A DNA stretch of 60,602 nucleotides, filler included, from Hausera hauseri (GCA_046269625.1; 10 parts of 10 records of this genome joined end to end with filler, not necessarily neighbours in it); one strand, 5' to 3'; counted from the whole stretch's first letter, positions 7,701-53,622 are shown. Program-made: numbers and translations. The notes: generated from the sequence alone by a model not told the origin.

Positions 7701-8937
7701 TTTTGAGGTGTTTGAAGTTCTATCTTGCTTTTTCGTTGGAGGAGGTCCATCCTTATCTTTATTTGATTCATCTTTATTTTTATTCTTCTGTTTCCATTCC
7801 GCATCTTTTTTATTAGGAAACAACTTACTACAAATGGTATCACTGTAAAAATAATTTTCCATGTACAACCAGTAGCTTGTTTTATACCATATCCTTTTGT
7901 TACCATTGTTAAGAGTGCTTCTACAAAGGCAAAGATAGTAAAATCCTAGTCATCCAGAATTCAACTGTCCGAACCACATGTACCTTCCTCATGCGGTTGC
8001 AAATATATCTTTAGCTATTCGTTTTGCATAAACAGGTCCCATCAAACTTTCCCAATTAGGTTTTCCAGTCTGGTCGGCTAACACTTTCATAGCCATTTAT
8101 GTTGATACTCTGTCTCTGTTGTTGAAATATTATCATTCTTCTATGATTTTCCATATCTTGTTCGGAATAGACACCCATCTTTACTAAATCTTATAATGGC
8201 GTACACGTCTGTTCGGTCTTTAGGTTGATGAAACTGATTTTGCGGAGTGGGGTAATTTGTTCCTTCTTGGGCATTCTTACGCAAAAATTGTCGCTCAATG
8301 TGAACACAGGCGACATTGTATATGTACAGTTTTGATGTATATCTGGTTTCTCCATTGGATCTAGTAAAATCCGAGTGATTGGTTGTAGAAAGCGTGGTTT
8401 TTCTTTGTACCATACTGGTAATTCCATGGTACAATCAGCAGTTGGTTTTAACTTAACGGTTTCTCTGGTACGTTCAAATGTCACAAGAGTTTCACCAATT
8501 GTCCGTGCAAATTTTTTTCCGCATCGGGAAATTCAGCAGGATCTTTTATAATTCCATCCTTTATTGCTGATATATCCTATTTCTAATTATTTCTCTATTT
8601 AATTTGCAATCATTTAGTATCATTTCTCTATACATAGCATAGATATTATCTTGCTGAAAATGATAGATGAAATCGATTTTGTTATCGAAATACAAATGCT
8701 GCTCCACTTCCGACTTATCTATATTGCTGTTTTACTTCGGCTATTTTAGTTTTTTATAGGAATATACCTTTGTAGTTTGTTCGATATACCACTTGATTAC
8801 ATCTTTTCATATAACCTTCTATTTTAAATCTTATCCCTTCACTTGGATCTGCTGAGTATACTATAGTTGGGATTTCAATTGTATCCGATGCTCGATCTAG
8901 TCTACTTCGTGATATTTCTTTATACATTCGTCCTTTC
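4769..8937 (-). mobile_element. Decayed Ty3/Gypsy element: glycoprotein remnant - PR - RT - RNase H - integrase start
   Basis: PR IIDT(R)AS at ~7412-7430. RT DYRALN...YPLP...TLDLQKGFWQI and YLDN. RH LATDAS...NYSTIERELL...YTDHKPL. IN HHCC near 4860-4980. Confidence 0.9.
7830..8937 (-). pseudogene. Chuvirus-type glycoprotein, C-terminal half with TM region, upstream of the protease
   Basis: Manual translation: RCNQVVYRTNYKGIFL...YFDNKIDFIY...MYREMILNDCKLNRE...GETLVTFE; CTMELPVWYKEKPRFLQPITRILL; GRYMWFGQLNSG.LGFYYL. Collinear with 33960-35730. Confidence 0.8.
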
Positions 8938-31215: not shown

Positions 31216-31444
31216 CATTAACAGCTATAGTTTGTAGAAAGTTCTTCTCTGGCGACTGATAGTTCTATTTTTCTGGCATCTGGCATTAATATTTAGATTA
31301 CAGATCTTTCTCTTCTTATTTCTACTTCTAAAGATCCGTCGGTAAAATCATGTATCTAGGTGTGGACGGACAGGAAAACAGACAGATATATACAGTTAGA
31401 TAGACAAACTGATAGACGACAGGCAAAGACAGATGGATATGTTA

Positions 31445-32025
31445 AATACTAAATGTGCTGAAACCTGCACACGAAAACGGGTTGAAATAAAATTAATGTT
31501 ACACTTGAGAGAAAAACGAACAGATTATTAAAAAAAAATCTAAAACGATATCTGTTGACACCAGCCAGAAGGTACAAGAAATGTGGCACAAAATTATAAG
31601 CCTGTATGAGGTGGATGTATGTATGCAGTGGATACCACCCACACAAGCATCTATTTCAATGAGATAGCTGATAGACTGGCAAAGAGGGGAGCACAAATGC
31701 CCCTGATAGAACATCCATTAAGTTTGGCAACGACAAAACAGATAATCAAAAATAATTGTAGAGAGAATTGGATGAATAAGTTGGCACAGGCTAAAACCGA
31801 AAGGAAGCTTTTCAGACGCCTTACAACATGAAGATGCTATCAATACGATTAAACGAAAGTACCAAAACACAGGACTTCAGGTTGAGAACTGGCCACTCTA
31901 CACCAAATGCACACAGAGACAGACTAGACCCACAGACTACAGCAAGATGCAGACATTGTACACACCAAAATGAGACAAGTGAGGCACCACCTGCTGTCTT
32001 GCTCCACACTTCAGGAGGTAAGACA
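31445..32025 (+). mobile_element. LINE RNase H C-terminal part and Cys/His tail
   Basis: MQWIP...NEIADRLAKRGA; RLRTGH...CRHC...NET. Confidence 0.75.
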
Positions 32026-32987
32026 NNNNNNNNNNNNNNNNNNNNNNNNNNNNNNNNNNNNNNNNNNNNTTAATTAATTAANNNNNNNNNNNNNNNNNNN
32101 NNNNNNNNNNNNNNNNNNNNNNNNNCTCTCGCGCAAACACTGCAATATATACAGAATCCAGTTGAATGGTCACCAGGCTTTGACCTACATTGCCACTCCG
32201 AAGTAGCGGAAATTAGAAATGATCCACAACTGACGAGCGACGTACAAATTAATTTCACTATTAACAGAAATGGCAGAAATTAACGAAGTAATAGCGAAAG
32301 ACTAACAAATCGAATACGTCTGATAAAAGAAACCCGGTTACGCTTTGAGAAAAGACAACGTGAATTAAACGAATTACTAAGAGAAACAGAAATTTATAAG
32401 AACAAGTATTCCCTTGCGGAATCAGAAATGAACGACAAAATGGAATTTGTACAAAGATGGCAGAGTGATAGAATCACGGAAATGACTAGTTATCAAGAAA
32501 AGGTTTAATACAACTAGAAGACATGTGTCGATTAATAAAGCTAATACAACAAGCTTGCGGAAACGGTGATGGATTTAGGGTATCCGTCATGAAAATTATA
32601 CAGCCGCAATTAAGCGAATTACACGAAAGTGTCCAGGTCGGACATGCGGCACTAACGAACTACGAGTTACCCGACGCAGACAATGAAGCCGAATGGGATG
32701 ATTATCTCCAAGGACTAACCGAGCAAAGTCAAAGAACTCCAATGCATATTTATGAATCACCGACTGGTGCACAGAAAGCGAAAATCGATGTGCAAATGCT
32801 AATCGATCCTACACTAGTTGAAAAGGAACTGAGTAGTATGTTGAAAGTAAATATAATCAAAGATAAATTAAGGAAATTGATTCCAACCTTGAGTAAACTG
32901 TCCAGTGAAAATACCGCATACAGCGCTCTACCTAAACTCTTAATAAGAGAATACGCTAAGCTATTGAAAAATAAACCGGAAAATGAA

Positions 32988-33206
32988 ATTAAAGTGAAAG
33001 TATAGTCTGAAGGAATGGATGACGAGGAATTTGAATGTACTACCTATACTACCGTTGGGGACATAGAACAACGGATAATGGACAAAAATGGCAGAGAAGG
33101 AGTCAATTACAGACTCTATTTTAGAGGTAGGATATTAGATGAGCCAGAGTTCTTAGTAGACGTAGGAATTATACCACTCGAAGCAAATCGGATAATAGCA
33201 ATAATC
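32988..33206 (+). CDS. Ubiquitin-like domain inside the polyprotein (one in-frame TAG at 33003)
   Basis: TTVGDIEQRIMDKNG aligns to ubiquitin DTIENVKAKIQDKEG; YRLYFRGRILDEPEFLVDVGI aligns to [21 protein letters not shown]. No terminal GG. Confidence 0.8.
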
Positions 33207-33386
33207 GCGAGCGAACAAACCAAAGATAAAGCCATGAGAAAGGCACATGCAGTGCATTGTGTTGGAAAAATCATGGGGATTCAGGATGCCGCAATGTATT
33301 TCGAATATCTACAGACTGACAACGACAACCCACAATACGATAAAAACTTAGTTCCTCTAAGCGAAACTTTACCACCAATAAAAGCG

Positions 33387-33413
33387 AAACGACCGGTTGG
33401 AAGGCCGAGAAAA
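33387..33413 (+). other. AT-hook motif
   Basis: KRPVGRPRK (GRP core; VGRP rather than canonical RGRP). Confidence 0.55.
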
Positions 33414-33908
33414 ATAAAGGAAATTGACTATAATGCAGACCTAATTAGGGAATTGAGACAATTATCAGTACCCACTCCGAGCTCAGATAATGAAGAACTA
33501 ATAGAACTAATGAGAGATTTAATTAGGATAGTTAATTATACTGGACTCCAAGGTGACATATTATCCGAGAAAGAAAGGCTAATATACAGTGTAGATCGGA
33601 CCATAAAAACTTCGCGATTTAAATTATCTAAAAGCACCCTCCCTGATGAAACAGTGATTGACAGAATTATGATGGACAACACGACGGAAAAATTAAGGAA
33701 AGTCTTGATATATTTGGCAGTAAAAACTAATCCTCTCCGAGAAAATGAAAGTGAAAAGGCAATTGGATTAGCTAGAAAAGCTGCGAAAAGGATGCCCAAA
33801 GAAATAAAATGGGTCAAACTATTTGAAAAAGAGAACAATGTGAAAAGGACTAATAACTTAGAAGACATGGTACGGAACATCTCCTCAAGTAAAGGGAATG
33901 AATCTAAT

Positions 33909-35730
33909 TGGTTAATCAATCTATTAACAATAATGATGCTAGTAAAACAAATGCGAGCAGTCACTATATATGATTGTGACAAATTCAAGCTGGGCCAGAA
34001 ATATTCCTTAATGGACTTAGAAACATGCGAAGATGCGAGACCCCATAAGTTAGAAACAACAGAAAAAAGGTATATATTATATCAACAACGAGAATTAATC
34101 GCAATGGACGCGACAGAATGCATGATATGGAGATCTCGCAGTGTTTTTCATTGCGGCGCTATGCACGGGCATTCTTCAATTATTAAACCAACCACACCAT
34201 TAATCCCAATGAATGTGGATAGACAACATTATTTAGGAGCCCGGCTAACCTGTAAAATGGTTTGGGAGGGCATGGCGTTAGAAGCCCAAGAAGGGAAAAT
34301 CATTAGGGCTTACAAAGTGGTAGTCGGAAAACTAAATATGCACACCGGTTATTGTGTCGGAGGAGAGTATTACACTGGAAAGGGAAAGGAAGAAGGAATA
34401 ATTGTCGTGGATTTTTACGAAACTGAATTAAGATCCTTAAAGGCAATGTTTTATAGTGTCACCACACTATTTACTGAAAATCAAAAATGTCGCATACAAG
34501 ATGGCGCTTGTACGTTCCGAAGTTCAGTTGTGGTATGGAATACACCTTCTAAAAGAGATTGCAATTTCACCAAAATCAAAGAGTTAAAATTTAACGAGAC
34601 GACCAGAAAACGTTATACAAATCAAATGCACGCTAATACCAGGTCCAGAGAAGGCGTAGTAGAACAACAGATACCGACGATATTGATATCGGACGCGCAT
34701 GGGTTAAAGTTTATTAGGAAGGACATGATAATGCGTTGCAATGTAGTTATGTATGCCACAAACTACGAAGCATTTTTCGTAGCGGAGACTGAAATTAACA
34801 TGAAAACGTATGATTTGAAAACGCAAGACATAAGGATAGAGAATTATCTCAAAAATCGATACGATTATTTCTATTACAAAGGACAAACCGGAATAGCAGA
34901 ACTGTATCACAAAATGATAACAAATTACTGCAGATTAGATACTGAAGTCATGATAACCAAATTGGCTTTAATTTGCGCCAATCCAGAATTGGCATTACCA
35001 ATTTTACCAATGAAAGAAGTTGTTTTCGGACGAGTTACTGGAGAAGTTCTCCTAACTTACGAATGCGAAAAAAGAGACGTACCGATCAATGTAGAAGAGA
35101 AATGATGTATGCAGGAATTACCAGTCATCTATAAGAACGTGCCCATACTAGCGATGCCACTCAGTAGAGTATTATTAGCAAACTCAACTGAACCAACGAT
35201 ACTGAAGGAATGCAAAACGAGCCCAGGTAAGCCTATGTTTCGGCGTAGCAGTACGGACTGGATAAGCATACCTAATGGAGGCACCACCGCAGCCCCTAGC
35301 AAGTTAACTGGAACGAATCTAATCAAAGGACTATCGGAAGATAAATTCGAGGATACAGCTAACAAAGGGATTTATAGGCCAAAGGACATAGAAGCCTTTA
35401 GGCAATTCTTAGTCTCTCCACGACAACGAACTTGTTAACTGAATCGGGCCATGTCAATGGTCATGGACGATACCCGCTTTCACTCGAAATGAGAATCGTT
35501 GCTGGGCGTTAACCACTATCAAATGGTAACATCAGAAGTATTGTATAAAATGTGGGGAAGATTTTTGATTTTTGGACAAGCCGCATCTGGATTTTTAGCT
35601 ATTTACTTCTTAATCCAACTATTTAATGCAGTAATTCAGGCTATAATAAACGGATATGACATATTCACATTGACAGGATTCTCTTGCAAAATTTTGACCG
35701 CGATCATCACAACCTTTGGAAAGATGCTAA
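33909..35730 (+). CDS. env: Env-like chuvirus (Jingchuvirales)-type glycoprotein: internal signal peptide, ectodomain, TM region; point stops
   Basis: WLINLLTIMMLVKQMRA|VTIYDC, YSLMDLETC, ECMIWRSRSVFHCGAMHGHSSI, GRVTGEVLLTYEC, CMQELPVIY...PLSRVL and WGRFLIFGQAASGFLAIYFL follow the chuvirus G motif order. Confidence 0.85.
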
Positions 35731-36381
35731 AAGCATACGAGGAAAATCGATGGAAGAATGACGTAGAACGTCACATTGGGCATTATAATCGCTAACGACA
35801 AGGAAAGTCCTCGATTCTTAATAAACGAAAGAATAAAAAGACAATAATGCGGAAAGACGATTCGGACGATGACAAGCCTAAGAGAGGAGAAGTGACTTCT
35901 AGAATGAGGATGCACAAGATGTACTCAGTAATTAACGCACCGTTGCCCATTATGCCGCCAGCAGCACCAATATATGAAGACTGTGACCACAAATCAATCG
36001 CATCGTGTAGGTCAGAAATCTATCAAAAGCCTATCAATTATGAGGATCCTTATGAGAAGACAAAACAATATGGAATACTTTGAAAAATGAATGTTATCAA
36101 CCAAGGACCAACTGAAAACGACCATGGAATGTTATACTCAAAAAGAATACTGCGTCACATAGAATCGAAATCAACAATCTGGGAAAATCCAAAAATGTGT
36201 CCTATCTCGGGTTCACTACCCCAGGAACCACTCAATGACAACCGCGTTACTGAAATAACAAACAACGACTTGTATCCGAATGGAGAAATAAGACAATTAA
36301 GGAAAGATATCATCTCATCGTCAGAAATAACGATAAATGGACATAGAGTCTCTACAGTAAAACGGTAAAGATAGTGTCAAA

Positions 36382-38336
36382 TTGCTACCTTTTGCTAAAA
36401 TACACATCGAAGATTGGGAATTGTATGCATTAATCGACACCGGATCAGAAAAATCATTTATAAAATATGAATCTATACCAACCACGTTGCGAGACCAGTT
36501 ATGTCCACCCGCATCATCAGACCCAGGTAGCGTAGGAGCATTTGGACAAGTATCGAAGCCGAAATTTAAATGGACTCCTACCTTTTATATGATGGGTCAA
36601 GCACTTCAACACGAATTTGCAATAATGGATCAGTTAACAGACGATGTAGTACTAGGGTGCGATATATTGAAACAGATACCAGGTATGGCAATCGATGTGC
36701 ACAATGGAAAATTAATTGAACTCGAACCGATAAAAGGGGCAAAACTAATAAAAGAAAGGAAATCGGGCGAAGTATGGATTCCAGTAGATGAAGACATTCC
36801 GCCTAAGACGGAAATGATAATTTTCGCACAAATTCGACAAGATGAAGATCTGCCAGTATATTTCTAGCCTCAAGAGAATATCGATCCAAACCTCATGTTT
36901 AGTAACATTTTGTGTAGAGTAATGACGGGAAGAATACCTATCAGATTAGTAAACAATGCACCGATTCCACTAAGATTGCACGCTAATACTACTTTGGGTC
37001 ACACTTGCAGAGTATCGGCAGTGACAATAGAGGAGAAACCATACAAGTGTGCCGAATTTCCACCTTATGTTGAAACCAAATTCTCTCCCGAAGCGTATTG
37101 CAAATTTTACAAATTATTGTGTAAATTCTGCTCGATAATAGCGAAAAACAAAGAAGACATAGGTAGAGCAAAGGCTCTAAGGTTAACCATTCCATTGAGG
37201 AAGAAACCTGGCTCAAATGACGAAATCGATCTAGAAGAACAGAAAATGCTTAAATAGTATCCGCCTCCTCACTCATTGAGACCAGAAATAACTAAAGAAG
37301 TAGAGCGGACGTTGAAGGCCGACATAATTCGACCAAGTTATCGATCATGGTACTCAACCATACTGATGGTTAAAAGAAAGGAACCACAAAACATCGGTTT
37401 TGTATAAATTATGGCGCGTTAAACACGCTGATGATGAAAGACTCGTTTCCACTACCATCAGTAAAGGAGACATTAGATAGGCTATCAGGAGCAAAATCGT
37501 TCACCACTCTCGACTTACAATCGGGATACTGGCAAGTGGAAATCGAAGAAGAGAATCGTTATAAGGCAGCATTCAAAACACACAATAACGTATATGAATT
37601 TAATGTTATGCCTTTCGGAATCACCACAGGACCAGCCATTTTACTAGAATGATGAATAAGATGCTCATGGGACTTGGTCATGCATTCGCGTACTTAGACG
37701 ACGTGATGATAGCATCAAAAACAGAAGAAGAACACTTAAAGGATATTGAAAATACACTCATGAGACTGGAACAAGCAGGGTTGAAGTTAAACCCAAAGAA
37801 ATGTAAATGGGCAATGAACGCCGTATCGTACCTTGGACACATAGTAGGAGAAGGAGGATCAAAACCGGACAAATCTCTGCTAAATAAAATATCCGATTGT
37901 ATGGAACCACAGAATCAAAAAGAGTTAAGACATTGGTTAGGCCTATGTGGATATTACGCCACTTACGTACCAGATAATTCAAAAATTAACGCACCACTAT
38001 ATCACTTACTCAAAAAAGGAATTAGGTGGAGATGGACAGAAGTGGAACAAAAAAGCATTCGACGAAATGAAGAAAATTTTGAAAAGCGAACCAGTTTTAA
38101 GATACCCAGATTTTAACCTACCATTCATCATTAAAATATATGCAAGTAAAGAAGGTATAGGGTATGAATTAGCTCAGAAACGCGAAGACGAAGAACTAGA
38201 ACATCCAATAGCCTATGAGGGACGCTATTTAAAGAAGGCAGAAAAGAATTATTCAGTTACCGAATTAGAAACGCTAGCCGTTGAGGAAGCACTACGACAC
38301 TTTAATGTCTATGTTTACGGACAGAAGATTATAATA
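36382..38336 (+). pseudogene. pol: pol (aspartic protease, RT, RNase H) of copy A
   Basis: DTGS, DSFPLP, TLDLQSGYWQV, MPFG, YLDD, RH motifs. Frameshifted. Confidence 0.95.
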
Positions 38337-39172
38337 NNNNNNNNNNNNNNNNNNNNNNNNNNNNNNNNNNNNNNNNNNNNTTAATTAATTAANNNNNNNN
38401 NNNNNNNNNNNNNNNNNNNNNNNNNNNNNNNNNNNNCGATACTGTGTTTTGTGCCCATTTACATTTCTTTGGATTTAGTTTCAACCCTGCTTGTTTTAGT
38501 CGCATGAGTGTATTCTCAATGTCCTTTAAGTGTTCTTTTTGTTTTTGATGCTGTCATTACATCGTTCAAATACACGAAAACATGCTCAAGTCCCACGAGC
38601 ATCTTATTCATCATTCTAGTAAAAATAGCTGGTCCTGTGGTGATGCCAAAAGGCATAACATTAAATTCGTATACGCCATTGTGTGTTTTAAACGCTGCCT
38701 TATATTGATATTCTTCTTCGATTTCCACTTGTCAGTATCCCGATTGTAAGTCGAGAATGGTAAACCATTTCGCTCCTGATAGTCTGTCTAAAGCTTCCTT
38801 TACTGACGGTAGGGGAAACGAGTCTTTCATCATCAACGTGTTTAATGCCCGATAATCTATACAAAATCGATGTTTTGTAGTTCCTTTCTTTTTAACCATA
38901 AGTATAGGTGAATACAATAATCTGTAGCTTGGTCGAATTATATCGGCCTTTAACATTCGCTCTATCTCTTTAGTTATTTCTAGTCTCAATGAATGGGGAA
39001 GTGGGTACCATTTAGGCATTTTCTGTTCTTCTAGATCGATTTTGTCATTCGAGCTGGGTTTCTTCCTTAATGGGATTCTTAATTTCAGGGCTTTTGTTCT
39101 GCTTATGTCATCCTCATTTTGTGCGATTATTGAACAGTATTTGCATAGTAATTTGTAGAACTTGCAATACGC

Positions 39173-41575
39173 CTAAGGAGAGAATTTGGTTTTAACGTGA
39201 GGTGGGAATTCAGCGCATGTATATGGCTTTTCCTCTATTGTTACTGCCGATACTCTGCAAGTGTGACCTAAAGTAGTGTTAGCGCGTAATCTTACGGGGA
39301 TTGGTGCGTTGTTCGCTAATCTGATAGGTATTCGTCTCGTCACTACTTTACGTAGAATATTGCTAAACATAAGGTTTGGATCGATATTCTCTTGAGGCTC
39401 GAAGTATACTCGCAGATCTTCGTCCTGACGAACCTGTGCGAAAATTACCATTTCGGTTCTGGGCGAAATATCTTCATCTGCCGGAATCCATACTTTGCCC
39501 GATTTCCTTTCCTTTGTTACTTTTGTTCCTTTTGTCGGTTCGAGCTCAATTAATTTTCCGTTATGCACATCGATTGCCATGCCCGGTATTTGTTTCAATA
39601 TATCACAACCTAGTACTGCATCGTCTGTTAACTGGTCCATTATTGCGAATTCATGTTGAAGTGCTTGGCCCATCATATAAACGGTAGGAGTCCATTTAAA
39701 TTTTGGCTTCGATATTTGCCCAAATGCTCCTATGCTACCCGGATCTGATGAAAATGCTGGGCATAGTTGTTCCCGTAGTGTGGTTGGTATCGAATCGTGT
39801 TTTATAAACGATTTTTCTGATCCTGTGCCGATTAAGGCATATACTTCCCAGTCTTCAATGTATATTTTAGCCAACGGTCTGCCTTTTACTACTGTTCCAA
39901 AGCAATTCGACGCTGTCTTTGATTGTTTTGTGGTAGAGACTCTGTGTCCATTTATTGTTATCTCTGGCGACGAAATGATATCTTGCCTAAATTGTCTTAA
40001 TTCTTCGTTTAGATATAAATCGTTATTTGTCATTTCAGTCATATGGCTGTCGATGAGTGGTTCTTGGGATAGTGGACCGGAGGTCGAACACAGTTTTGGG
40101 TTTTCCCAGATCGTTGATTTTGATTCTATGTTTCGAGGTATCCTTTTTGAGTATAATATCCCGTGGTCGTCTTTTGTTAGCCCTTGGTTATTAATATTTA
40201 TTTTCCGTAATACACCATGTTGTTTTGTTCTTTCATAAGGATCTTCATAATCAATAGGCTTACGGTAGATGTCGGACTTATATAACATGACTGATCTCCG
40301 GTCGCAGTCTTCGTATATTGGTGAGGTTGGTGGCATGATAGGCAATGGCGCGTTAATCACGGAGTACATCTTGCGCATTTTCATCCTGGAACTTGCTTCT
40401 CCTCCATTAGGCTCGTAATAATCCGAATCATCCTTTTGTGTTGTTGTTTTCTTGTTTTCACGCCTATACAAAATTGAGGGTCTCCCTCGTCGTTTGCGAT
40501 TATAGTACCCGACGTGGCGTTCTACGTCATTTTTCCATCGATTTTCTTCGTAGGCCTTAAGTATTTTTCCAAAGGGTGTGATAATTGCAGTCAAAATTTT
40601 GCAGGAAAATCCTGTTAATGTGAATATTTCATATCCGTTGATAATGGCTTAGATTACTGCCTTAATTAGCTAAACTAAAAAGTAGATGGCTAGGAATCCA
40701 GATGCAGCTTGTCCGAAAATTAGAAACCTTCCCCAAATCATATGCGCTATTTCTGAAGTTACTCTTTGATAGTGATTGGCACCAAGTAATGATTCCAATT
40801 TTGCTTGAAAGCGGGTGTCATCTATTACCAATGACATGGCCCGATTCAGTTCATAAGTACTCTGTCGCGGAAATGCTAAGAATTGCCTAAAGACTTGTAT
40901 GTCCTTTGGTCTATAAATTCCTTTATTGGCTATGTCTTCGAACTTCTCTTCTGATAATTCTTTAATTATATTTGTTCCGGTTAGTTTATTATGGGCTGCA
41001 GCAGCGCCTCCATTAGGTAAGTTTATCCAGTCGGTTCCACTACGTCGGAACATGGGTTCACCTAGGCTCGTTTTGCATTCTTTCAGTATTTTTGGTTCAA
41101 TCGAGTTTGCCATTATTACCCTGGTGAGTGGCATTGCTAGTCTCGACATATTTTCATAGATGACTGGTAATTGTTGCATGCATCTTTTTTCTTCCGCGTT
41201 GATTGGCACGTTCCTTTTTTCACATTCGTAATTTAATAGGACTTCTCCAGTAACTCGTCCAAAGACACCTTCGTTCATTGGTATAATTGGTGATGCCAAT
41301 TTTGGGTTGGCATAGATTAAGGCCAGCTTGGTTCTCATGACTTCAGTATTTAATCTGCAGTCATTCATTCATGAAATAGTCATCTGGATTTTTGAGGTAA
41401 TTCTCGATCCGTATATCTTGCGTTTTCAAATCATACTTTTTTATGTTAATTTCGGTTTCTGCTACGAAATATGCTTCGTGCTTGGTGGCATACATAGCTA
41501 CATCACAGCGTGTTAACATATCCTTTCTAATAAACTTTAATCCGCGTGCATCCGATATCAATAGTATCGTATCGG
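39173..41575 (-). pseudogene. Glycoprotein C-terminal half - TM - tail - protease
   Basis: The 473-aa ORF runs without a stop from TAIITPFGKILK (end of TM region) to ALIGTGSEKSFI (protease). Confidence 0.9.
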
Positions 41576-44061
41576 CTATTGTGGGATCAAGTAACATTTG
41601 CACGTTGAATTTAGTTTTATGAGTATAAGTAGGTGACTCATAAATTTGTATTGGAGTTCTTTGACATTGCTCGTTAAACCTTGGATGTATTCATCCCACT
41701 CGGCATCATTATCCGCGTCAGGTAACTCGTAGTTCATTAGTGCTGCGTGTTCAACCTGGACTCTTTCGCGTAGTTCTCTCATTTATGGTTGCAATGTTTT
41801 CATTATGGATATCCTAAATCCATCTCCGTTCCCACAAGCTTGTTGTATAAATTTTATTAATCGGCACATTTCTTCTGGTTGTATCAAGGCTTTCTCTTGG
41901 TAGTTAATTACTTCTGCGATTCTGTCCCTTTGTCATCTTTGTATAAATTCCATTTTGTCGTTAATTTCAGATTCTGTAAGGGAATACTTGTTCTTGTAGA
42001 CTTTTGCTTCTCTCAGTAATTCGTTTAGCTCGCGTTATATTTTCTCGGAGCGTAACTGGGTTTCTTTTACCAGACTTATTCGATTTGTTAGTCGTTTGGC
42101 TACTACTTCGTCAATTTCTGCCATTTCTGTTAATAGTATGATTAATTTATGCGTTTGATTTAATACTTCAGCGTCCGGATCTATTGAGTCCATTAGCCTG
42201 CCTATGAACTTGGCCTCATCGCCTGTCAATTGAAGACCCTTTCTAATTTTTGTTAGTTCGGTGTTGCAATGTAGGACGAAGTCTGGTGTCCATTCTGCTG
42301 GATTCTGTAAGTATTGTAGTGTTTGCGCTATAGCGATCCGGTGATCGTTACATAGTTCTAATATTTCTATTTCTTGTGCTGAGATTTCCTTCAATGGTTT
42401 CTGCATTAGGCTCTGTATCCCTTCCCAATGGATGTTCGCTAAACTTCGCTGAAGATCACTTAGCTTGTTTCTTTTTCTATCATATCATATATCTTTGTTA
42501 GTGTTGTTTGATATTGATCCCTGCTCATAAATTCAAGTTCTCGGAATGATTCGAATTTCATTCGCAATTTTGCTTCATCTTCCATCGTACCCATATCTAG
42601 TAACATTTCCTCCAATTGGTCTTTCATTATAGGCTCAGCCGTAGCGAATTCTCTTAGTCCTTCATTTATTATCCCTGCTATGGAAGGTAACAAGTCTATC
42701 CACTTCTTTAGTTGTTTGGATATTGCCGGTTTGGTATAGACTATTTCGTTTAGTGTCTCAAGAGCTTATTTTAGTTCGTGACATGGCCTTCGTACAAATT
42801 CTATAATGTGTTTCACGTAGTTGAATTCTTCTTTATATTCCTCTAGTTTGAGTAGACAAGCGTGTATTATTCTCTGTGCTTCTGCTCTTTCAGGATGAAT
42901 TACACCGATTTTAAAATTATTAATTTTCATTCGTATTTCGTTTTCTCTTTCAATCCGAATTTCTAAATTTGGGTATTTTCGAGGGCTATCCTTTATCAGG
43001 CTGCACATTGCTATTAGAGGGGGAATATCAATTGGGTCTATACCCAATATCTTTAGGTCGGCTTTAGTCAGTTCATATACTGGCTTGCTATGCAGATAAG
43101 AAGTTATCACTTCTTCGATCTCATATATCAATCTTTCTAAATTACGCCTTACGCGTTTCAATTTTGGGTCAATTTTTAGTGCGTTTAATGATCCTTGTGC
43201 TTGATAAACTTGCTCGAGAAACGGCTTGTTTCTATTCCACCATATTTTCGTAAAGTTGACTCCACTCTTTGTCCGCAGTTCTAATTTATTTTGCCAATTT
43301 TCTATCCAGTCTTGAGGCGTTTCTTGCAGTTCGTAAGGTGTGTTTTCTTCCTTTTTCTGAGAACCGGGTTTAAGCTTTTATATAGCTTTTCTATAAATTG
43401 TTGTTCTTTTTCAGGGATATGCAACTGTTTGCTCATCTTCTGGAGTTTTGTTAAGCTGTCCTGTAGCCTTTCGGGATCATTCAGTGCGTCTGTTATTTTG
43501 GTTAGTTCGCTAGCATTTTTCCAATATTTTATAATTTTCCTAAATTTAATAGATTTTTCCTCTACTGATTCCTCTTCACTAGGTGGTAATGGACATATTT
43601 TGTTAATTTCATCGATATTCGAAATATTTGTTGTTTCCGGAAAGTCTTGGGTTATTACAGGGGTATTTAACTTCGTTTTATTTCTTAAAGTGATGGTAAA
43701 GTCTTCCTAAGTGAAGGGCTTCTACCTTTATTCTTAGTTATCTTGAGTACTAATGGCCCAATGAATTTACTCTCAACCTCGTCTGTTGTTTTATCCTTAT
43801 TTTGAGACACGACTTCGGTATCTGCGTCCAAGTCTACACTTAAAGACGTAGTCGGCTTTTCTTCTTCCGCTGCTCGATTTAGGTTTCTCTTCCTGGCCAT
43901 GTTAGTATTCTTAGGTTCTATAGCTTTTTCGTACTCCGTTTTCGGCTCTCTTAACCCATGATAAACTTCCATTTGCTGCAGCTTTTCTTTGTATTCCTTC
44001 CTGGCCTTAATTATTGTGGATTATTAGATTCGCCGATATTTTTTACATACCTTTGTAAGTC

Positions 44062-45350
44062 CTACATCTCGATAATCGTAGTCATATCACCTCGTTTTCC
44101 ATAAATTCCTTCCAAATTATCTTTTATCGTGCTAGTTTTACTAGTCTGTGAAAATGATACACTTCGTGGATTAGGGCATGATCTAGCTATATGTCCTTCC
44201 TTACCACATAAGTAACAAATAAGGTTTCCATCTTGGCCGATCCTTTGTCGTCCGTCTTCATTCACTGGTGATTGGGATCTACCTATTGTTTTGCTTTGAG
44301 CTTGCTTGTCGATACCGTTATTTCTATTTTCGAAACTCCAATTATCTGTATATCGGTTCTTATTGCTTCGGTCATTATTTTGGTTTCTATCCGAAGTATA
44401 GCCTGTTTTGTTATAAGTATTGTATGTGTTTCGATTATCACTAAAGTTCCTATTGTCATATCTCGTGCTGCGATTAGAGGCATTTTGAGCTCTATTCTCA
44501 TAGTCTCGGTCCTTATTATTATCGTTGAATCTTTTATTGTTTCGGTTCCTATCCCGATTATCGCGATCATTATTTCGGTCTTATCTATTGCTCTGCCTAG
44601 CGTATCTATCTAGTGCCATTTCTAAGTTCTGAGCTAATTGTAATGACGTCTCAAAATTGTCTGGTCGAGCTAAAATTAGTTGCTTAACTAAATCTGTGGA
44701 CCATATACCGTTTATTAAATGAGTTGTCATCATGACATCTAAATCTGGCGGACTCGCCTTTTCTGTCGCTTTGCGTTCTGCGTCTGTCTTTGCCTTCGCA
44801 GCATTAGCTATCCTTAGCGTACTCACGTAACTATTATCAAGTTTCTTTAGTGCGAATGCGAATTGAGTAACCGACTCGCCTTTTATTGCGTTCTATTCTG
44901 AAAGACCATAAGCTTTTGTTCTGGCGTAACTGTCGGCAATAGTTTACGATTTAGGGCTCCTACTACACAGGATAATGATTTCTTCTCATCATTAGTGAGT
45001 TCACTATAGGCGTCTGCGTTTAGATTTTTCAAGTATAAAGACAATCGTTTAATCATAACTTCGGGCGCAAGATTAGCACCTTCTGCAATCAACTTGTAGG
45101 TTCGTAAAATGTCATTTAGCCAGTCCGGGTCACCATTATATGCCGGTAAGTTCAAGGAATCGAACGTACATATATCGAGTTTTTGAGCTACGGCTGGGTT
45201 TTCTGTTAGTTTAGTGTCGGATAAACAGTGATTGTCTATTATCTTATCTTTAGTATAAAGTTTATTTCGTGTCTCTCTTCGATTAAATTTCTGTTGGCCG
45301 TTTACTAATAAGTTTTGATTTGAGTTGAACCTATCAACGTTGGCTCTCAA
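44062..45350 (-). pseudogene. gag: gag: capsid-like region, R/D/N-rich linker, CCHC zinc knuckle
   Basis: LPAYNGDP...LSLYLK...FQNRTQ..GESVTQFA; CYLCGKEGHIARSC at 44176-44217. Confidence 0.9.
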
Positions 45351-45500
45351 ATTAGTTTTTACTTAATTCCCTCTATCGACTTATGATCCCAATTTTAAAT
45401 TCTCGGCTTTTACTATATCAATTACTTGATGTAAATGACGCTATTCGCCGGTATGTCGTTAATTAGCTTCTCAACAGTAAAGTCTAGCGAGGTACAAACT

Positions 45501-45518
45501 GTCCTGCTAGGGTCGCCA
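45501..45518 (-). promoter_or_regulatory. Primer-binding site (tRNA-Arg type)
   Basis: TGGCGACCCTAGCAGGAC, 2 nt after the LTR end ...TATAACA. Confidence 0.85.
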
Positions 45519-45520
45519 AA

Positions 45521-45813
45521 TGTTATAGTTAGGGTGGCCCTTTTCGTCTCCCACTATAACAATATTAAACTCACGTTAAACCTTGTCGTATGCAGATTAG
45601 GACTATTCGTTCTCGAATAGTCGATTTGTACCTTAGAATTTTAGAAACTTTTATCGAAGTAACGGAAATTGCTTGTACTGCTTGTAAAAAAAATTACGTG
45701 ATGTAATTTACAATCTCTAGTCTTACTTATATAGTTTAAGTAAAGATTTTTACCTTAGGGTAGTACAAATCGTCTTTAAGAGACGATGGAAATCTATATG
45801 AGAATTTATAACA
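45521..45813 (-). repeat. 293-bp 5' LTR of copy B
   Basis: Perfect 7-bp inverted termini TGTTATA...TATAACA; TATATAA at ~45730; followed by the PBS. Confidence 0.75.
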
Positions 45814-46270
45814 ACAAATAATATTAATCTTTATTGAATACACGATCACGTACGGAAATAAATAGAAGTCAATAGTCTTTAGAGCTGTATGGCAATAGCA
45901 ATTTGAACTGGTTATAATGATATCAACGAAGTCTAGCTTGAACGACTCTAAGTCGGTTCACTTGAATGATACTAAAACAATGCCTCTCTATTCTCTGATC
46001 AAGCATGTTTATATAGTAGTGTTTCTCGTCGTATGAAAAATTTTCTAAATTTATCTTGGCATTTTCTGATTTCACATCGAATTATTTACATTTAAATTAT
46101 TTATCTATTATATACATGATTTCAACTTGCGCACAGCAATATTTGTTATATTTCTAAAATTAGTTAAATGACAAATTTATGTCTGGAATTCGATTTGTAA
46201 TAATTCTGAATATATTCCAATGACGAAGTATTGTGGTCCACTTGTTACATATGTTAAATTTCTCCTCCCT
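45814..46270 (-). mobile_element. PPT and interrupted 3' LTR of a RING-bearing element
   Basis: AGGGAGGAGAAA (46270-46259), then TTTAACATATGTAAC; TATATAAA at ~46010; AATAAA at ~45833. Confidence 0.65.
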
Positions 46271-46893
46271 GAGCGGCATCCTTGAAGGAGCCTATTGCCT
46301 CAGAAGAAGTGGCGTCTAAATGTCTGGGTTGTCTCAATTGATTCATTCTTTCTCGTAGGTCAGTATGAGAGTTTGATCTACCTTGGGTGGTTGATGGACT
46401 CATCTCCAGATTATAACTATGGTAAGGCTGGATTCGGACGATTCGTGTATAATTTTCGTTGGAGTAGTATTTTAATTCAGTAGCCTCTGCCCGACATAAT
46501 GGGCATGTCGTCTTCCCATTGTCGAGTGTCCATTTTTCCAGACAATCCCGGCAATATTTATGGCTGCAATTTTTGTTGTCTAAAACTACATAGCCTTGTC
46601 CTAGGCTTGCGTTGCATACAGGGCATTCACTATCTTCCTTATCTCAGTCGTTCCTATCCAAATCCACTTGGATTATTAACTCGATGGATTCAAATACAAG
46701 ACCATCTTCGTCTTTATATAGGTACCCGTGTATTACCTTTTGTTTGCGGTTAATGGCGCTCTTTCATGGGTCGCAATTTACTTGGATCAAGGTCCAATCC
46801 GCTAGAAAGTCTTTATCCAGGTATGGAATTGTCCCCTCTATTTTATTTTTTTGGTATTGTTTCTTTAGCAATATTCGAATTTGTTTGTCCATG
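46254..46893 (-). pseudogene. Retroelement 3' reading frame with a C3HC4 RING finger (not in the ORF track)
   Basis: 46625-46494 encodes CPVCNASLGQGYVVLDNKNCSHKYCRDCLEKWTLDNGKTTCPLC. The frame ends QGGEI* across the PPT. Two TGA stops lie upstream. Confidence 0.85.
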
Positions 46894-46993: not shown

Positions 46994-49900
46994 AGCAAAG
47001 CCCAGCTAGTGAATATTGCCGATTACATAGCAAACCAAGATGATTTTTTGTTCAATATAACTTACAAAACAATTGAAGAAATATACTCTGAGACCATTCA
47101 GAACTTTTGCAGAGTGAATTTTGAAACTTTGAGGAACCGTTTGGCTATCTATGCATCTAGTCCAGAAATTACCACAATAACCCTTCCCTTTGGCGAAGGA
47201 ATTCAAGGCAGATTACTAAGAGAAGTATGAAATACATACAAATGTAAACGATTACACTTACCCCTGATTGCTGGTACTCACTGCTACTCTGAGATACCTT
47301 TTAAGTATAATGAAGAAATCCGATATGTTCAACCGATTACCAGAGTACTTCTGGCATCACATACAATACCCAACGAAATCCAAAATTGTTCAGCACTGAA
47401 TAAACCATTTATCAAGTACCATAATCAGGATTTCTGGGTTAGATTACCCGACCGTGAAAGAGTTAAAGAAAGGCCGAAGAAGTTGACAATGGCGAATTTG
47501 AAACATGAAATTGAGACCAATATGTTCACTGACGTATCCAAATCCGCATTATACACTAAGAAAGAAATTGACTCATTTGTGAAATTTCTGGCCTATGCCC
47601 AATAAAGAGAGCAAATAATAAATCGCGGAATACACCCAGTAATCGACGACACTGTCGGAGAAAGAAAATGGGACACCTGATGCCTATGCTAAAATCGTTT
47701 CCAACTTATGGTATAAAATGTGGGGCGGATTCCTAAGATTCGGCCAAGTAGCCTCTGGGTTTCTGGCCATATAGGTCATTATACAGACTTTAAAAATCTG
47801 TATCAATTATGTATTAAACGCCTACAAAATCTATAACTTTACAGGACTATCTCTAAGCATAGTAGGTACTCTATTTTCCCCACTTGGTGAATTCATTAAA
47901 GCTTACCATGAGAAACAATGGCGAGGTAAACTAGAAAAACATGTCGATTATAAATCGAATAAGCAACTTCCAAGGGACATCCCGTCAAGTTTCGATGACA
48001 ACAATGCTCCTGGATATTATCCTACCACAAGGATTATAAAGGATACGAAAGGGAAACTAAGGTTTTTGAAATGAAAGGATAAAAATAGACCTAAATCACT
48101 TGCTGCGCCATATGAGAATAGAACAATGCTTATTTCTAGATTATAAATATTAACAGACTTGAGTGATCCGTATAGAAAAATGGAGCAGTATATAAAACTA
48201 CGTAATTTACCAAAATACTCTCAGGAAGAAATACGTCAATCCATTATTAAATGAAACATGGAAAACAACCGTGTAACATTACCAACATCACCTAAGTTAG
48301 GTATACTGCCAACTATACCTTATCACAAAACAACCCCATTAATGAAAGATCAAGTAGATAGAGAACCCTATTTAACGACCTCAGAATCCGTTGGTAAGCA
48401 AAACACAGACCTGGCTGAACTCAGAGGCAGCGAAAGGAATGGAAAACAATACTCAATCCTTGGAAAGCTTAGCGGTTATATTATCAAGCGGCACTACCCG
48501 AAATTGTTCAGCTAGTTACAGCTTGATAGAACCACATATAGATAATCATAACGATGTATTAACATTTCTCGAGCTGTTAAGGGATAATCGACCTCACACC
48601 ACAGTTTACTTTGATAGTTTTGACCTGAATGCTATGGTTGACACTGGAGCTAACGTTCCATTAATAGCAAAACATGCAATTCCAGAAGAATTACAATCTC
48701 AAATAAAATTGGCTACTAAAGACTCACCTGGTACTACTTCGGCTTTTCAGCAATGCAGTAAACCTTATGGATACTGGAAAAGTGTACCATGGATTTGCGG
48801 ACATAGTCAAGATAACTTTTGATGTAATGCTTACCTTGGATTTACGATGCATTTTGGGTATGAATGTGTTGCGAAAATTGGAAGGAGTACACATAAACTT
48901 ACAATCAGGATCAATTTGTTCAAATAATGAAGATAAACCCCCTAGCTGCAATAAAACAGACATTTGGATAGGACACGTTGAGAAAATATCAACCAATTCT
49001 CGAATGGTTATACATGCTAGAATAATTTTTCCAGACAACAGTGTCATTGAGTTTGCGCCGAAAACTCTTCGAAATGGGCTTATATTACCACACTATTGCG
49101 TTAATGTAATTGGAAGGACTATTACAGTAGATGTTTTAAACCCAACCCCAAACTATGTCACGTTGTTCACTAAAACAAAAATTGGATAGACCCTTGAGAC
49201 AACTCGTCGTGAGAATTACGATAAGAGAGTCGCGACTGTCTCTACCACAGAACAAGAAAATGCCGAAGATATATTAAACGTCGTTCTCGCAAAAGCGAAG
49301 AAAAATCTATCATATGAATATCTAGAAAGCTTCTCAGATCTTATTTTTGAGTATCTTGACATTTTTGCAAAGAATGAAACAGGTATTGGACGAACTGATT
49401 TAGTCAAATTCAAATTATCATTTATGATTGACCCGCTAACAGGAAAAGAAATAGATTTATTACGACAACCTATACCAAAATGGTACCCTCCTCCAAAAGT
49501 ACTCCAAAAGGAAGTTGAGAAACAAATTCAAACTATGCTCGATAAAGGTATTATAGAACCAAGTCAATCTCCATGGCCCTCTCCCATAGTTATGGCCAAG
49601 AAGGCTAATACAACTAAACAACGTTTGTGTGTAAATTACGTTACCTTAAATAAGCACCTGATGAATCATACTTATCCGATTCCTCGAATTCGAGATATAT
49701 AGACGAACTTAAGGATTGCAAATATTTTACCACTTTAGATTTACAAAATGGACTTTGGCAAATTCCTGTGGCTGAAGACGACCGATGGAAAACTGCATTC
49801 AAGACACACAACGGAGTCTATCAATTCACTCGTATGCCATTCGGCTTAAAAACATCACCCACATTCTTTCAAGAATTTATTCGCCTAGTACTAAAAGAAG

Positions 49901-51794
49901 TACGAGGTTTATCATACATTGACGACGTTTTCATCGCGTCCAAGACATGGTCTGCGCACTTAGCTGAATTAAAAGAAGTATTCGATCGAATTAGACTTGC
50001 GAAATTAAAGCTAAACCCGAAAAATGTAAACGGTGCAAGAAAGAAGTTAGATATCTTGGATTTGTTGTTTCCAACCAAGGAATTTCGACTAGGCCTGATT
50101 TAATATCCAAAATATTGGAATACCCCCCATCAACCAATGTCCACGAAATGAAAGCTTGGTTAAGTTTGGGAGGACTTTATGCTACATTTATACCTGACTT
50201 TGCGGAAATTAATCAGCCTCAATATAAACTCTTAAGAAGGGATCGCAAATGGGAATGGACAGAAGAGAATCAAAATGCATTTGACGAGATCAAGAAACGA
50301 ATGGTATCAGCACCTATATTGAGATACCCAGATTTTTCGTTACCATTAATTCTGATAACCGATGCTAGCATAAAAGCTATTAGTTATATTAGCCCAGCAA
50401 AATCCAGAAGAAACAACTGAGCACGTAATTGCCTACGGAGGATGTAATTTAAATAATGCAGAACGAAAATACTCAACCACTGAATTAGAATTACTAGCTA
50501 TTCGCGATGGATTGCTACATTACGAGTATTACGTTTACGGTCATAAAATCATAATATTTACTGATCATAAGGCACTCTTATCTTTACGCTCAGACAATAG
50601 ACATATCAAGTCGACTCCAAAGATGGAAGTTGGAACTTTTGAATTATGATCTTGAATATCCATATCGTCCTGGCAAAGAAAACATAGACGCCGACGCGCT
50701 TTCGAGAATGCCACACTATAAGATAGTAGCCGCAGTTTATAAACCATTAGATAATGAGAATGACAAACAACTGAATGAGAACAACGCAAAATCCAAGTAC
50801 GAAATATCGAGACCTTACAAAACCAGGATCACTTTCTTGTTCAAATCAGACAATTAATCAATGGGCAATTAGTTGACTCGGCATCAAACCACATTCAAAA
50901 ATTTTATGAAAAGAACAAAAAAAATCTTGAAATTGAAAATTGCATTTTACGACTAAGAGTCGGAGAAAGAAAATTGATCCTTGTATCCACACCGTCCATC
51001 AAGGCTGTCATGCTATAAGAACATGATTCGCATTTAGCTGGACATCCGTCCTTGAATAAAACTTTGAAGCGAATAACTGCAAAATACTATTGGCCTCAAA
51101 TGAATAAGCATATTGAAACATGGGTACGTTCGTGTAAAATATGCGCAACTCGAAAAGATAAAGGATCTCGTGTAAAACCATTTTTAGGAAGCTTGCCAGA
51201 AGCACGGAGACCAATGGAAGTGTGTTCAATAGATATCTCCGGACCCTTCCCAGCTTCAGACTTAGGATACAAATACATTCTGTCCCTGGTTGACTATTAT
51301 TCTCGCTATGTTATACTAGTGCCATTAAAGAATATGACGAGTAGCACAGTTGCTGAAGCCTTTTTCTACGAAATTATTGCTGTACTGGGCACCCCGAAAC
51401 AGTTGTTAACTTACCGTGCACCATATTTCATTAGCGAATTCTTTGAAAAATTGTCAAAAATACTTCAATGCAAACATTTGTTAACCACATCATACCATCC
51501 ACAGTGCAATGGTATGGTTGAGATAATAAATCGTACTATTTAAGGTATTCTTTCTACAAAGGTAGCAAATGATCAAAATGATTGGCACAACCATCTGAAA
51601 ACCACAGCCTTTGCAATTAATACTACGCCTACCAAAGGAACCAATCATTCACCTTTTGAGTTAATATTTGGCCGATTGCCGCTATTACCATTAGATACGG
51701 AATTACTACCATCATCCTTGTTAACTAGTGATCACATGGATGATCAATATCAGATTTTGTTAAAACGACTCGAATACTTTCAACATGAAGCAAA
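46994..51794 (+). mobile_element. Ty3/Gypsy element of a related lineage: glycoprotein C-half - tail - PR - RT - RH - IN
   Basis: NFCRVNFETLRNRLA...GEGIQGRLL; CYSEIPFKY...YVQPITRVLL; MWGGFLRFGQVASGFLA; VDTGA at 48640; YIDD; ITDAS; HLAGH...CKIC; SYHPQCNGMVE. Confidence 0.95.
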
Positions 51795-53521: not shown

Positions 53522-53622
53522 CTTCACATGCAAATAACATCAACAAAGTATAGTCACATTGTGGGAAAGGTCCTCCCATTGACACGCAAATCCTCCAGTG
53601 CGATCCCACTCTAAGCATTACA

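What the first reader, a model, noticed from the sequence alone, without database searches (positions are those of the whole stretch)
32126..38336. Gypsy retrovirus-like element with a chuvirus-type envelope embedded between gag and pol in one polyprotein
Seen: one reading frame, broken only by point stops, runs from a helical region through Ubl, AT-hook, an internal signal peptide (33909-33959), a Cys-rich glycoprotein and a TM region into a ~210-aa tail. In sister copy B the tail continues without a stop into the protease, and RT is in the same frame. Known: env in retroviruses and errantiviruses normally lies 3' of pol, and chuvirus G capture is reported in Bel/Pao elements. Inference: the ancestor made a single Gag-X-Ubl-Env-Pol polyprotein threaded through the ER like a flavivirus polyprotein, with signal peptidase freeing Env and Pol tethered to the Env tail. 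I cannot confirm this layout is unreported.
Basis: partly seen in the sequence, partly recalled or inferred. Interest (0 to 1): 0.92.

Follow-up and report, generated by a model that had tools for sequence, protein, structure and literature searches.

The report
Decayed Burro-type enveloped retrotransposon copy
This is a broken copy of a virus-like jumping gene, likely from a flatworm, whose herpes/chuvirus-type envelope gene sits between the capsid and enzyme genes and was likely made as part of one long protein, a striking layout already published in 2019 for the planarian "Burro" elements.

Summary
Real, but already described. The envelope matches Pfam Monjiviricetes_fusion (E 1.8e-55), and its model (pLDDT 87) matches chuvirus G and herpesvirus gB; the RT is Ty3/Gypsy-like. 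'One frame, only point stops' holds for 32490-36365 only: the copy changes frame at seven places elsewhere, including tail-to-protease, and gag lies only in sister copy B. The fused design is still well supported. Copies A and B share none of their 7+7 stops, dN/dS is 0.13 over 1,149 codons (tail 0.15), B is open from tail into protease, and public relatives carry Gag marker, Env and Pol in one chain. Arkhipova and Yushenova 2019 described this order in Burro (Gag, Ubl, BCL2-like, env in frame, protease, dUTPase-like, RT), and Chary and Hayashi 2026 list GAG-ENV-POL elements in flatworms, bryozoans and nematodes. The ER-threading model is likely but untested, and my searches did not find it spelled out. 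This scan reported the same layout before on other DNA. Verdict: new member of a known kind.

The parts
32126..32990 (+). Copy A: end of a long helical region of unknown family between gag and Ubl; contig edge at 32126; three frame changes
   Evidence: dN/dS 0.21 against copy B over 186 codons
32991..33170 (+). Ubiquitin-like domain; the stop at 33003 falls inside the match
   Evidence: PF00240 E 0.0064, residues 168-227 of P0001, below curated cut-off; aligns with Ubl of P0011 and P0017
33387..33419 (+). AT-hook-like motif
   Evidence: PF02178 E 0.15; GRP-basic motifs also precede Env in P0004, P0006, P0011, P0126 (seen)
33480..33875 (+). Probable Bcl-2-like helical domain, divergent (the GGW motif of the relatives is absent)
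   Evidence: positional homologue of stretches with PF00452 hits: P0003 E 0.00096, P0114 0.0021, P0011 0.055, P0005 0.2; 9.1 bits against a profile of four relatives, 2 of 999 shuffles as high; fold test inconclusive
33909..33959 (+). Internal signal peptide (predicted), homologous in position to the N-terminal signal peptide of stand-alone chu-like G proteins
   Evidence: hydrophobic stretch before the YDC/FDC start in 12 of 12 relatives shown; same stretch near the N-terminus in 29 of the 54 other rows
33960..35560 (+). Class III (chuvirus G / herpes gB-type) fusogen ectodomain, 16 Cys, 3 N-glycan sequons, three stops
   Evidence: PF24664 E 1.8e-55; model pLDDT 86.7; Foldseek chu-like G E 8e-41, HSV-1 gB E 6e-16
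35562..35648 (+). Predicted transmembrane helix
   Evidence: 19-mer hydropathy 2.11 here, 1.79-2.54 in the 15 rows anchored; long helix in model; dN/dS 0.04
35661..35717 (+). Second, weaker hydrophobic helix; likely cytosolic and amphipathic, second membrane pass not excluded
   Evidence: weaker than the first in 15 of 15 anchored rows of 16, usually with 1-2 charges; Cys present in 11 of 12 relatives
35720..36387 (+). Hydrophilic Env tail linking to the protease; two stops; frame change at its end in A, open in B
   Evidence: dN/dS 0.15 over 201 codons; B ORF 39173-40648
36388..36678 (+). Aspartic protease
   Evidence: PF00077 E 1.3e-4, above cut-off
36769..37023 (+). Probable degenerate dUTPase-like domain between protease and RT
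   Evidence: 8-row profile hits only dCTP deaminase and dUTPase chains, E 0.027-0.57; no Pfam hit for the B stretch
37246..38336 (+). Reverse transcriptase and start of RNase H; three frame changes; contig ends at 38336 before integrase
   Evidence: tblastn with P0002 and P0014; RT of copy B best matches Ty3 RT, E 3e-32, against 2e-9 for HIV
38437..41563 (-). Copy B: second half of Env, membrane region, tail, protease, RT; 80% identical to A
41576..45362 (-). Copy B: gag (capsid-like region, Arg/Asn-rich stretch, CCHC knuckle at about 44170-44217) and the long helical region; decayed
   Evidence: zf-CCHC E 2.7e-6; frames
45501..46270 (-). Copy B: purine tract, LTR-like stretch of about 740 bp, primer-binding-site-like TGG-starting motif
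   Evidence: only one LTR is in the contig, so its limits are inferred
46254..46892 (-). RING-finger frame directly upstream of the purine tract; multi-copy; likely the 3' accessory gene of a preceding element of the family
   Evidence: zf-RING_2 E 1.6e-9; 63 contigs of run X1 lie over 46499
46994..51794 (+). Copy C, a more distant family: Env, membrane region, protease, RT, RNase H, integrase in this order; decayed
   Evidence: PF24664 E 2.5e-21; rve E 1.9e-10
4769..8937 (-). Copy D, another family with Env upstream of Pol; decayed; Env 72-78% identical to P0011
   Evidence: tblastn; frames

Best explanation
This is a decayed copy of a multi-copy Ty3/Gypsy LTR element with a gB-type envelope between gag and pol, and its active ancestors likely made one Gag-helical-Ubl-Bcl2-like-Env-protease-RT-RNaseH-integrase polyprotein, predicted to cross the ER membrane twice. 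Shown: the domain order, the envelope's family and fold, Env-tail-protease-RT in one frame (copy B and relatives), purifying selection on every compared part, and breaks private to each copy. Inferred: the hydrophobic stretch at 33909-33959 is the captured viral G's own signal peptide and now acts internally. Gag and its cargo stay in the cytosol, signal peptidase frees the Env N-terminus in the lumen, one stop-transfer helix returns the chain to the cytosol, and the element's protease then releases Pol from the Env tail and trims Gag. The cut signal peptide would leave the Gag-side product, ending in the Bcl-2-like domain, anchored in the membrane, as for anchored core in Flaviviridae (established knowledge). 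Capsids would then assemble at the membrane that carries Env and bud as enveloped particles. The copy here is dead.
For: Envelope: PF24664 E 1.8e-55; model pLDDT 86.7 matching chu-like G at E 8e-41 and herpes gB at E 6e-16. Pol: Ty3 RT best; order protease-RT-RNase H-integrase in copies C and D. Frame: dN/dS 0.13 over 1,149 codons against 1.13 and 1.44 in the two other frames; 7 stops in A and 7 in B, none shared. Six of A's seven frame changes are length differences against B; contigs of other copies differ in length at five. Relatives: of 20 top or long hits scanned (of 124), 10 carry a protease or RT after Env in the same chain, 4 the whole Pol with integrase, 3 a Pfam Gag marker before Env, 2 (P0006, P0018) both Gag marker and protease. 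P0002 and P0014 show a CCHC knuckle by eye plus the whole Pol. P0011 runs Gag knuckle-Ubl-Bcl-2-like-Env without a break and is 72-78% identical to copy D of this window. Topology: signal-like stretch in 12 of 12 relatives; second hydrophobic segment weaker in 15 of 15; YPx[LIV], a cytosolic sorting or budding type of motif, in the tail of 7 of 11 relatives against 0.7 expected (motif picked by eye first). Literature: PMC6431247 section 7 gives the same order in one ORF.
Against: No copy in the window spans gag to Env in frame. B has several frame changes there, and only one (43375) showed as a length difference in other copies at a 30% threshold. The stop at 33003 has no B counterpart to test. 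Signal peptide and membrane topology rest on hydropathy and homology, not SignalP or DeepTMHMM; A's signal peptide missed my threshold. The Bcl-2-like call is weak in this copy: profile against PDB gives Bcl-xL only E 0.06, below unrelated helical hits, and the model had pLDDT 48. Copies A and B lack a YPx[LIV] motif. I could not see the contigs of the relatives, so their open frames are taken from the gene calls. There is no expression, cleavage or particle evidence.
Confidence: 0.72

Rival explanations
1. The genomic frame is fused, but Env (or Pol, or a Gag-only product) is made mainly from spliced or internally started messages, so the full chain is rarely threaded through the ER.
For: A 1:1:1 Gag:Env:Pol output is unusual, and errantivirus env is normally made from a spliced RNA (established knowledge). 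An earlier, unchecked note of this scan (e1-8573470) mentions a spliced message in a related element.
Against: The tail between Env and protease is under purifying selection and stays in frame with Pol. 10 of 20 relatives scanned keep Env and protease in one chain. Separate messages would not need this.
Confidence: 0.15
2. In this family Gag is a separate frame, and only a Ubl-Bcl2-like-Env-Pol or Env-Pol chain is fused, reached by readthrough or frameshift.
For: Gag-to-Env continuity cannot be shown in the window, and the stop at 33003 is untested against another copy.
Against: That stop falls inside the Ubl match. P0011, P0006, P0010, P0014 and P0018 join Gag to Env without a break. Burro ORF1 is continuous.
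Confidence: 0.08
3. The second hydrophobic helix is a true membrane pass, so Pol fused behind it would face the lumen and working Pol must come by another route.
For: The second segment is conserved, with hydropathy up to 1.7. Chary and Hayashi note gB-type ectodomains flanked by two transmembrane domains in some elements, though that may describe the upstream signal anchor.
Against: It is weaker than the first in 15 of 15 rows and carries charges. The same pair of segments is seen in stand-alone G proteins. gB has one pass (established knowledge). A lumenal RT could not be packaged.
Confidence: 0.04
4. The envelope is a passive viral insertion or a nested element inside an ordinary Gypsy copy.
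For: Chuvirus glycoprotein pieces are known as endogenous viral elements (Dezordi et al. 2020, seen only as cited in PMC13524379).
Against: The same order occurs in four contigs of at least three divergent families in this window. dN/dS is 0.13 in Env, the junctions are in frame, and intact relatives exist.
Confidence: 0.01

Closest known systems
Burro / GYPSM1 giant Gypsy elements of planarians (Arkhipova and Yushenova 2019, PMC6431247; section 7 and passages read; Grohme et al. 2018 and Jurka 2007 seen only as cited there)
   Same: Gag with CCHC knuckle, long helical region, Ubl, BCL2-like, env related to mononegavirus glycoproteins, protease, dUTPase-like, RT, in this order and described as one ORF.
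   Different: Much more compact: LTR about 0.74 kb and about 10-11 kb from gag to RNase H, against more than 30 kb in all. One knuckle seen. No MATH, BIR or ankyrin hit found in the pieces scanned. A C3HC4 RING frame sits before the purine tract. All four copies here are decayed. No direct sequence comparison with Burro was possible.
GAG-ENV-POL 'ancient errantiviruses' with HSV/gB-type ENV (Chary and Hayashi, eLife 2026, PMC13524379; abstract, sections 5 part 1, 6 part 1, 14, 22, passages, and rows of supplementary files 1 and 2 read)
   Same: Ty3/gypsy Pol, gB-type env, env between gag and pol. By eye, the six Schmidtea ectodomain rows share the YQ...EC...C pattern (CG in five) of this Env and its relatives; the Bryozoa and Nematoda rows shown do not.
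   Different: Their elements are intact and often multi-copy. The passages read speak of three ORFs and did not use the words 'polyprotein', 'single ORF' or 'fused'.
Chuvirus and other Monjiviricetes glycoproteins; herpesvirus gB (class III fusogens)
   Same: Pfam PF24664 and fold; signal peptide before the first Cys; two C-terminal hydrophobic segments.
   Different: Embedded in a retroelement chain, with Gag cargo before the signal peptide and Pol after the tail.
Env-carrying BEL/Pao elements of mosquitoes (Dezordi et al. 2020) and non-canonical nematode ERVs (Sacco et al. 2022), both seen only as cited in PMC13524379
   Same: Captured RNA-virus glycoprotein; the nematode elements have env before pol.
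   Different: This RT is Ty3/Gypsy-like, not BEL; the nematode env rows look distant by eye.

Membership tests
Ty3/Gypsy (Metaviridae) | RT closest to Ty3/Gypsy | tested here: met
   Ty3 RT E 3e-32, caulimovirus-type 3e-20, HIV 2e-9 among PDB chains (no BEL RT seen in the list to compare); my RT tree was unresolved
Ty3/Gypsy (Metaviridae) | Pol order protease-RT-RNase H-integrase | tested here: met
   protease-RT-RNase H in A; integrase follows in copies C and D and in P0002, P0004, P0013, P0014; A and B end before integrase
Ty3/Gypsy (Metaviridae) | Paired LTRs, primer-binding site, purine tract, target duplication | tested here: inconclusive
   one LTR-like stretch between a purine tract and a TGG-starting motif in copy B; no contig holds both ends
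HSV/gB-type GAG-ENV-POL errantiviruses | gB-type ectodomain between a signal peptide or membrane segment and a transmembrane helix | tested here: met
HSV/gB-type GAG-ENV-POL errantiviruses | Order gag, env, pol | tested here: met
   copy B holds gag, half of Env and Pol on one contig; A overlaps it at 80-82% identity
HSV/gB-type GAG-ENV-POL errantiviruses | Intact reading frames (the paper's inclusion rule for its catalogue) | tested here: not met
   8 stops and 7 frame changes in A; it is a dead copy of this kind of element and would not enter their list
Burro/GYPSM1 architecture | env in frame between gag and pol in one ORF | tested here: inconclusive
   Env-to-Pol met (copy B); gag-to-Env not testable in these decayed copies, met in relatives
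Burro/GYPSM1 architecture | Ubl domain before the BCL2-like domain | tested here: met
   PF00240 E 0.0035-0.006, below cut-off, same place as in P0011 and P0017
Burro/GYPSM1 architecture | BCL2-like domain just before env | tested here: inconclusive
   Pfam and PDB hits in relatives; weak in this copy; fold test uninformative
Burro/GYPSM1 architecture | dUTPase-like domain between protease and RT | tested here: inconclusive
   all 5 PDB hits of the profile are dCTP deaminase or dUTPase, E 0.027-0.57
Burro proper (giant planarian family) | Giant size (over 30 kb) with MATH, BIR and ankyrin cargo | tested here: not met
   LTR about 740 bp, compact interior, no such Pfam hits in the pieces scanned; so Burro-like in design, not Burro itself
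Burro proper (giant planarian family) | RT clade shared with Burro | not testable with these tools
   no Burro or Repbase sequence was available to the tools

The most novel reading that the evidence does not exclude
A compact Burro-type lineage, possibly in a parasitic flatworm, in which the captured viral signal peptide does double duty: it opens Env to the ER and stays behind as the membrane tail-anchor of a Gag-linked Bcl-2-like death regulator. The Env tail would carry the budding signal (YPxL in relatives) and bring protease monomers together, and a separate RING ligase gene would sit at the 3' end. This would be a retroelement that assembles like a flavivirus and brings its own apoptosis and ubiquitin tools, a mechanism my searches did not find spelled out.
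Probability: 0.3. Interest if true: 0.55.

Novelty: new member of a known kind. Interest (0 to 1): 0.24.

Why it matters
The layout is odd and worth knowing, but it has been in print since 2019. This window adds at least three decayed families with the layout in one genome, selection evidence that the Env tail was translated into the protease, and a set of intact public relatives. If the threading model holds, these elements would show a second way to build an enveloped retroelement, with capsid, fusogen and enzymes cut from one membrane-spanning chain. That is testable in planarians, which carry intact copies. The copy here cannot show it.

Tried and rejected
No whole genome is held for this window. 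Word-based homolog searches for long fused relatives found none, and P0011's upstream region found only itself; the full HMMER search did find them, so those blanks carry no weight. Sequence searches of the Env against PDB gave nothing useful; the fold search was needed. The model of the Bcl-2-like region had pLDDT 48, and its fold search gave only generic helical hits, best Z 6.6, with no Bcl-2 chain among the 50 rows: uninformative. The Atlas gave no usable hit for that region and only 'sugar transporter' for the host exon, so the host is not established. The RT tree (10 rows) had 1 supported branch of 7 and is not used. The first dN/dS run used a wrong frame for 32240-32300 and showed a false shared stop; one search corrects it. 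The tail-similarity search did not run because the script failed before it. No RNA holder was listed. A locus search with the Env alignment could not be seeded. Sacco 2022 and Grohme 2018 were not held under the identifiers I recalled. Literature searches. None listed a paper on signal-peptidase processing of such elements, on Burro-like elements in parasitic flatworms, or on their RING accessory genes; Repbase, Dfam and subscription journals were not searchable. Rejected: nested insertion, chance frame, BEL/Pao identity, novelty of the layout.


Full report
The window. It is a string of ten short contigs joined by N spacers. The finding is one whole contig of 6,211 bases (copy A, 32126-38336, + strand), cut at both ends by the assembly. 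The next contig (38437-46893, - strand) is copy B, 80-82% identical where they overlap. Two more contigs, C (46994-51794) and D (4769-8937), hold more distant families with the same Env-before-Pol order. Two public runs hold thousands of short related contigs along the whole of A (20,415 and 1,932 laid), so the family is highly repeated. No whole genome is held.

The observation. One frame runs from 32490 to 36365 with six stops, where shuffles give about 92. In it lie a weak ubiquitin match (E 0.006), an AT-hook-like motif (E 0.15), a hydrophobic stretch at 33909-33959, a strong match to Pfam Monjiviricetes_fusion (E 1.8e-55), a membrane region and a tail. Outside that stretch the copy changes frame at seven places: near 32240, 32300, 32499, 36367-36387, 37372, 37639 and 38050. 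Gag is not in A. It is in B, behind an LTR-like stretch and a primer-binding-site-like motif, but B has lost the Ubl-to-mid-Env part and has frame changes of its own.

Are the breaks decay? Over 1,149 codons shared by A and B, dN/dS is 0.13 (helical region 0.21, Env 0.13, membrane region 0.04, tail 0.15, protease 0.08, linker 0.10, RT 0.12); the two other frames give 1.13 and 1.44. A has seven stops there and B seven, and none is shared. Six of A's seven frame changes are length differences against B, and contigs of other copies differ in length at five. The eighth stop, at 33003, has no B counterpart, but it lies inside the ubiquitin match. Between gag and the helical region of B only one frame change showed as a length difference in other copies (30% threshold), so gag-to-Env continuity is not shown for this family from the window.

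Intact relatives. A HMMER search with the first 381 residues of Env gave 124 hits. I scanned 38 of them with Pfam, chosen for rank or length (20, 18). Of the first 20, ten carry a protease or RT after Env in the same chain, four the whole Pol through integrase, three a Gag marker before Env, and two both a Gag marker and a protease. P0002 and P0014 also show a CCHC knuckle by eye. P0011 runs Gag knuckle, Ubl, Bcl-2-like, signal peptide, Env without a break, and its Env is 72-78% identical to copy D. These are gene calls whose contigs I could not view. P0002 is filed under a bacterial genome bin on a 9-kb contig, which suggests an unspliced call on stray animal DNA (inference).

The envelope. 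Read with X at its three stops and folded with 54 relatives, it gave pLDDT 86.7. Foldseek ranks chu-like virus glycoproteins first (E 8e-41) and herpesvirus gB first among solved structures (E 6e-16, TM-score about 0.4). The RT of B matches Ty3 RT at E 3e-32 and HIV RT at 2e-9. The linker between protease and RT gives weak hits to dCTP deaminase and dUTPase only (E 0.027-0.57).

The helices before the signal peptide align with stretches of P0003, P0005, P0011 and P0017. Three of these four have weak Bcl-2 Pfam hits, as does P0114 (E 0.001-0.2), and P0003 hits Bcl-xL in PDB at E 0.01. The window's version scores 9.1 bits against their profile, matched by 2 of 999 shuffles, and lacks their GGW motif. 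Its model was poor (pLDDT 48) and the fold search uninformative. I call it probable on position and homology.

How it likely worked. The hydrophobic stretch before the first Cys is present in 12 of 12 relatives shown and lies near the N-terminus in 29 of the 54 other aligned proteins, mostly stand-alone G proteins. It is likely the viral signal peptide, now internal; in A alone it fell below my threshold. After the ectodomain come one strong and one weaker hydrophobic segment (weaker in 15 of 15 anchored rows). I read these as one membrane pass plus a cytosolic amphipathic helix, with Cys in 11 of 12 relatives, but a second pass is not excluded. The tails of 7 of 11 relatives have YPx[LIV] against 0.7 expected; I picked the motif by eye first, and A and B lack it. 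I add that the cut signal peptide would anchor the Bcl-2-like end of the Gag product in the membrane. None of this processing is shown. Confidence 0.72; the main rival is spliced or internally started messages (0.15).

What is known. Arkhipova and Yushenova 2019 (PMC6431247, section 7 read whole) describe Burro/GYPSM1 of planarians: one ORF with Gag, Ubi2/SUMO-like, BCL2-like, env with hits to mononegavirus glycoproteins, protease, dUTPase-like and RT. Chary and Hayashi (PMC13524379; sections and supplement rows listed under Closest known systems) report GAG-ENV-POL elements with gB-type env in Nematoda, Bryozoa and Platyhelminthes. By eye, their six Schmidtea ectodomain rows share this Env's motif pattern; I did not align them. 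The other supplements of that paper, its figures and its online sequence files were not seen and may say more on ORF fusion. The scan has reported the layout on other DNA at least four times (unchecked notes). The element differs from Burro in being compact and in having a RING frame before the purine tract.

Host. Likely a flatworm (about 70%, inference): the Env resembles the Schmidtea rows, a sugar-transporter exon at 3493-4104 recalls schistosome glucose transporters (from memory, not tested; one search gave only the family), and unchecked notes on this genome say the same.

Verdict. New member of a known kind; interest 0.24. The boldest open reading is the processing mechanism with a signal-peptide-anchored Bcl-2-like domain and a RING accessory gene (probability 0.3, interest 0.55), which searches did not find described.

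Noticed in passing
window 24775-25296 (-): A second C3HC4 RING frame (zf-C3HC4_3 E 7.5e-8) ending in a purine tract, like the RING frame before the LTR of copy B; the two are 27% identical over 79 columns (E 0.002). Suggests RING accessory genes at the 3' end of several LTR families here.
   Followed up: partly
window 51895-60602: A Gypsy element on the - strand between two long repeats (about 52043-52443 and 59881-60282, 90-95% identical). The repeats carry frames matching PLU-1 (KDM5-type, E 6.6e-7), and the adjacent 58891-59703 frame has a weak chaperonin hit (E 1.7e-5). Fits earlier notes of host-gene pieces in LTRs of this genome.
   Followed up: partly
window 57878-58633 (-): The frame at the start of that element has a ubiquitin-like look with an LRLRGG motif before the gag-like part (seen); no Pfam hit at E 0.1.
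   Followed up: partly
window 45820-46179: The inside of copy B's LTR-like stretch is covered far more thinly by contigs of other copies than its ends (60-77 against thousands in run X1), so the LTR interior may vary between copies.
   Followed up: no
P0002, P0004, P0013, P0126: Intact relatives continue past integrase into long extensions with a further signal-like stretch and a C-terminal membrane segment; P0126 (4,844 aa) has several extra protease-like domains, ankyrin repeats and C2H2 fingers.
   Followed up: no
P0002: A Gag-Env-Pol retroelement protein filed in NCBI under a Flavobacteriaceae genome bin (HBK71150.1); probably animal DNA in a bacterial bin.
   Followed up: no
window 9549-16548 (+): Very long Ser/Lys-rich host frames with a 159-bp tandem repeat (53 aa) and an assembly gap; no Pfam hit.
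   Followed up: no
window 26099-32025 (+): Decayed LINE-like pieces (endonuclease-like frame at 29896-30393, RT/RNase H-like remnants), by eye.
   Followed up: no
window 3493-4104 (+): Exon of a sugar transporter (PF00083 family), a possible handle on the host's phylum.
   Followed up: partly
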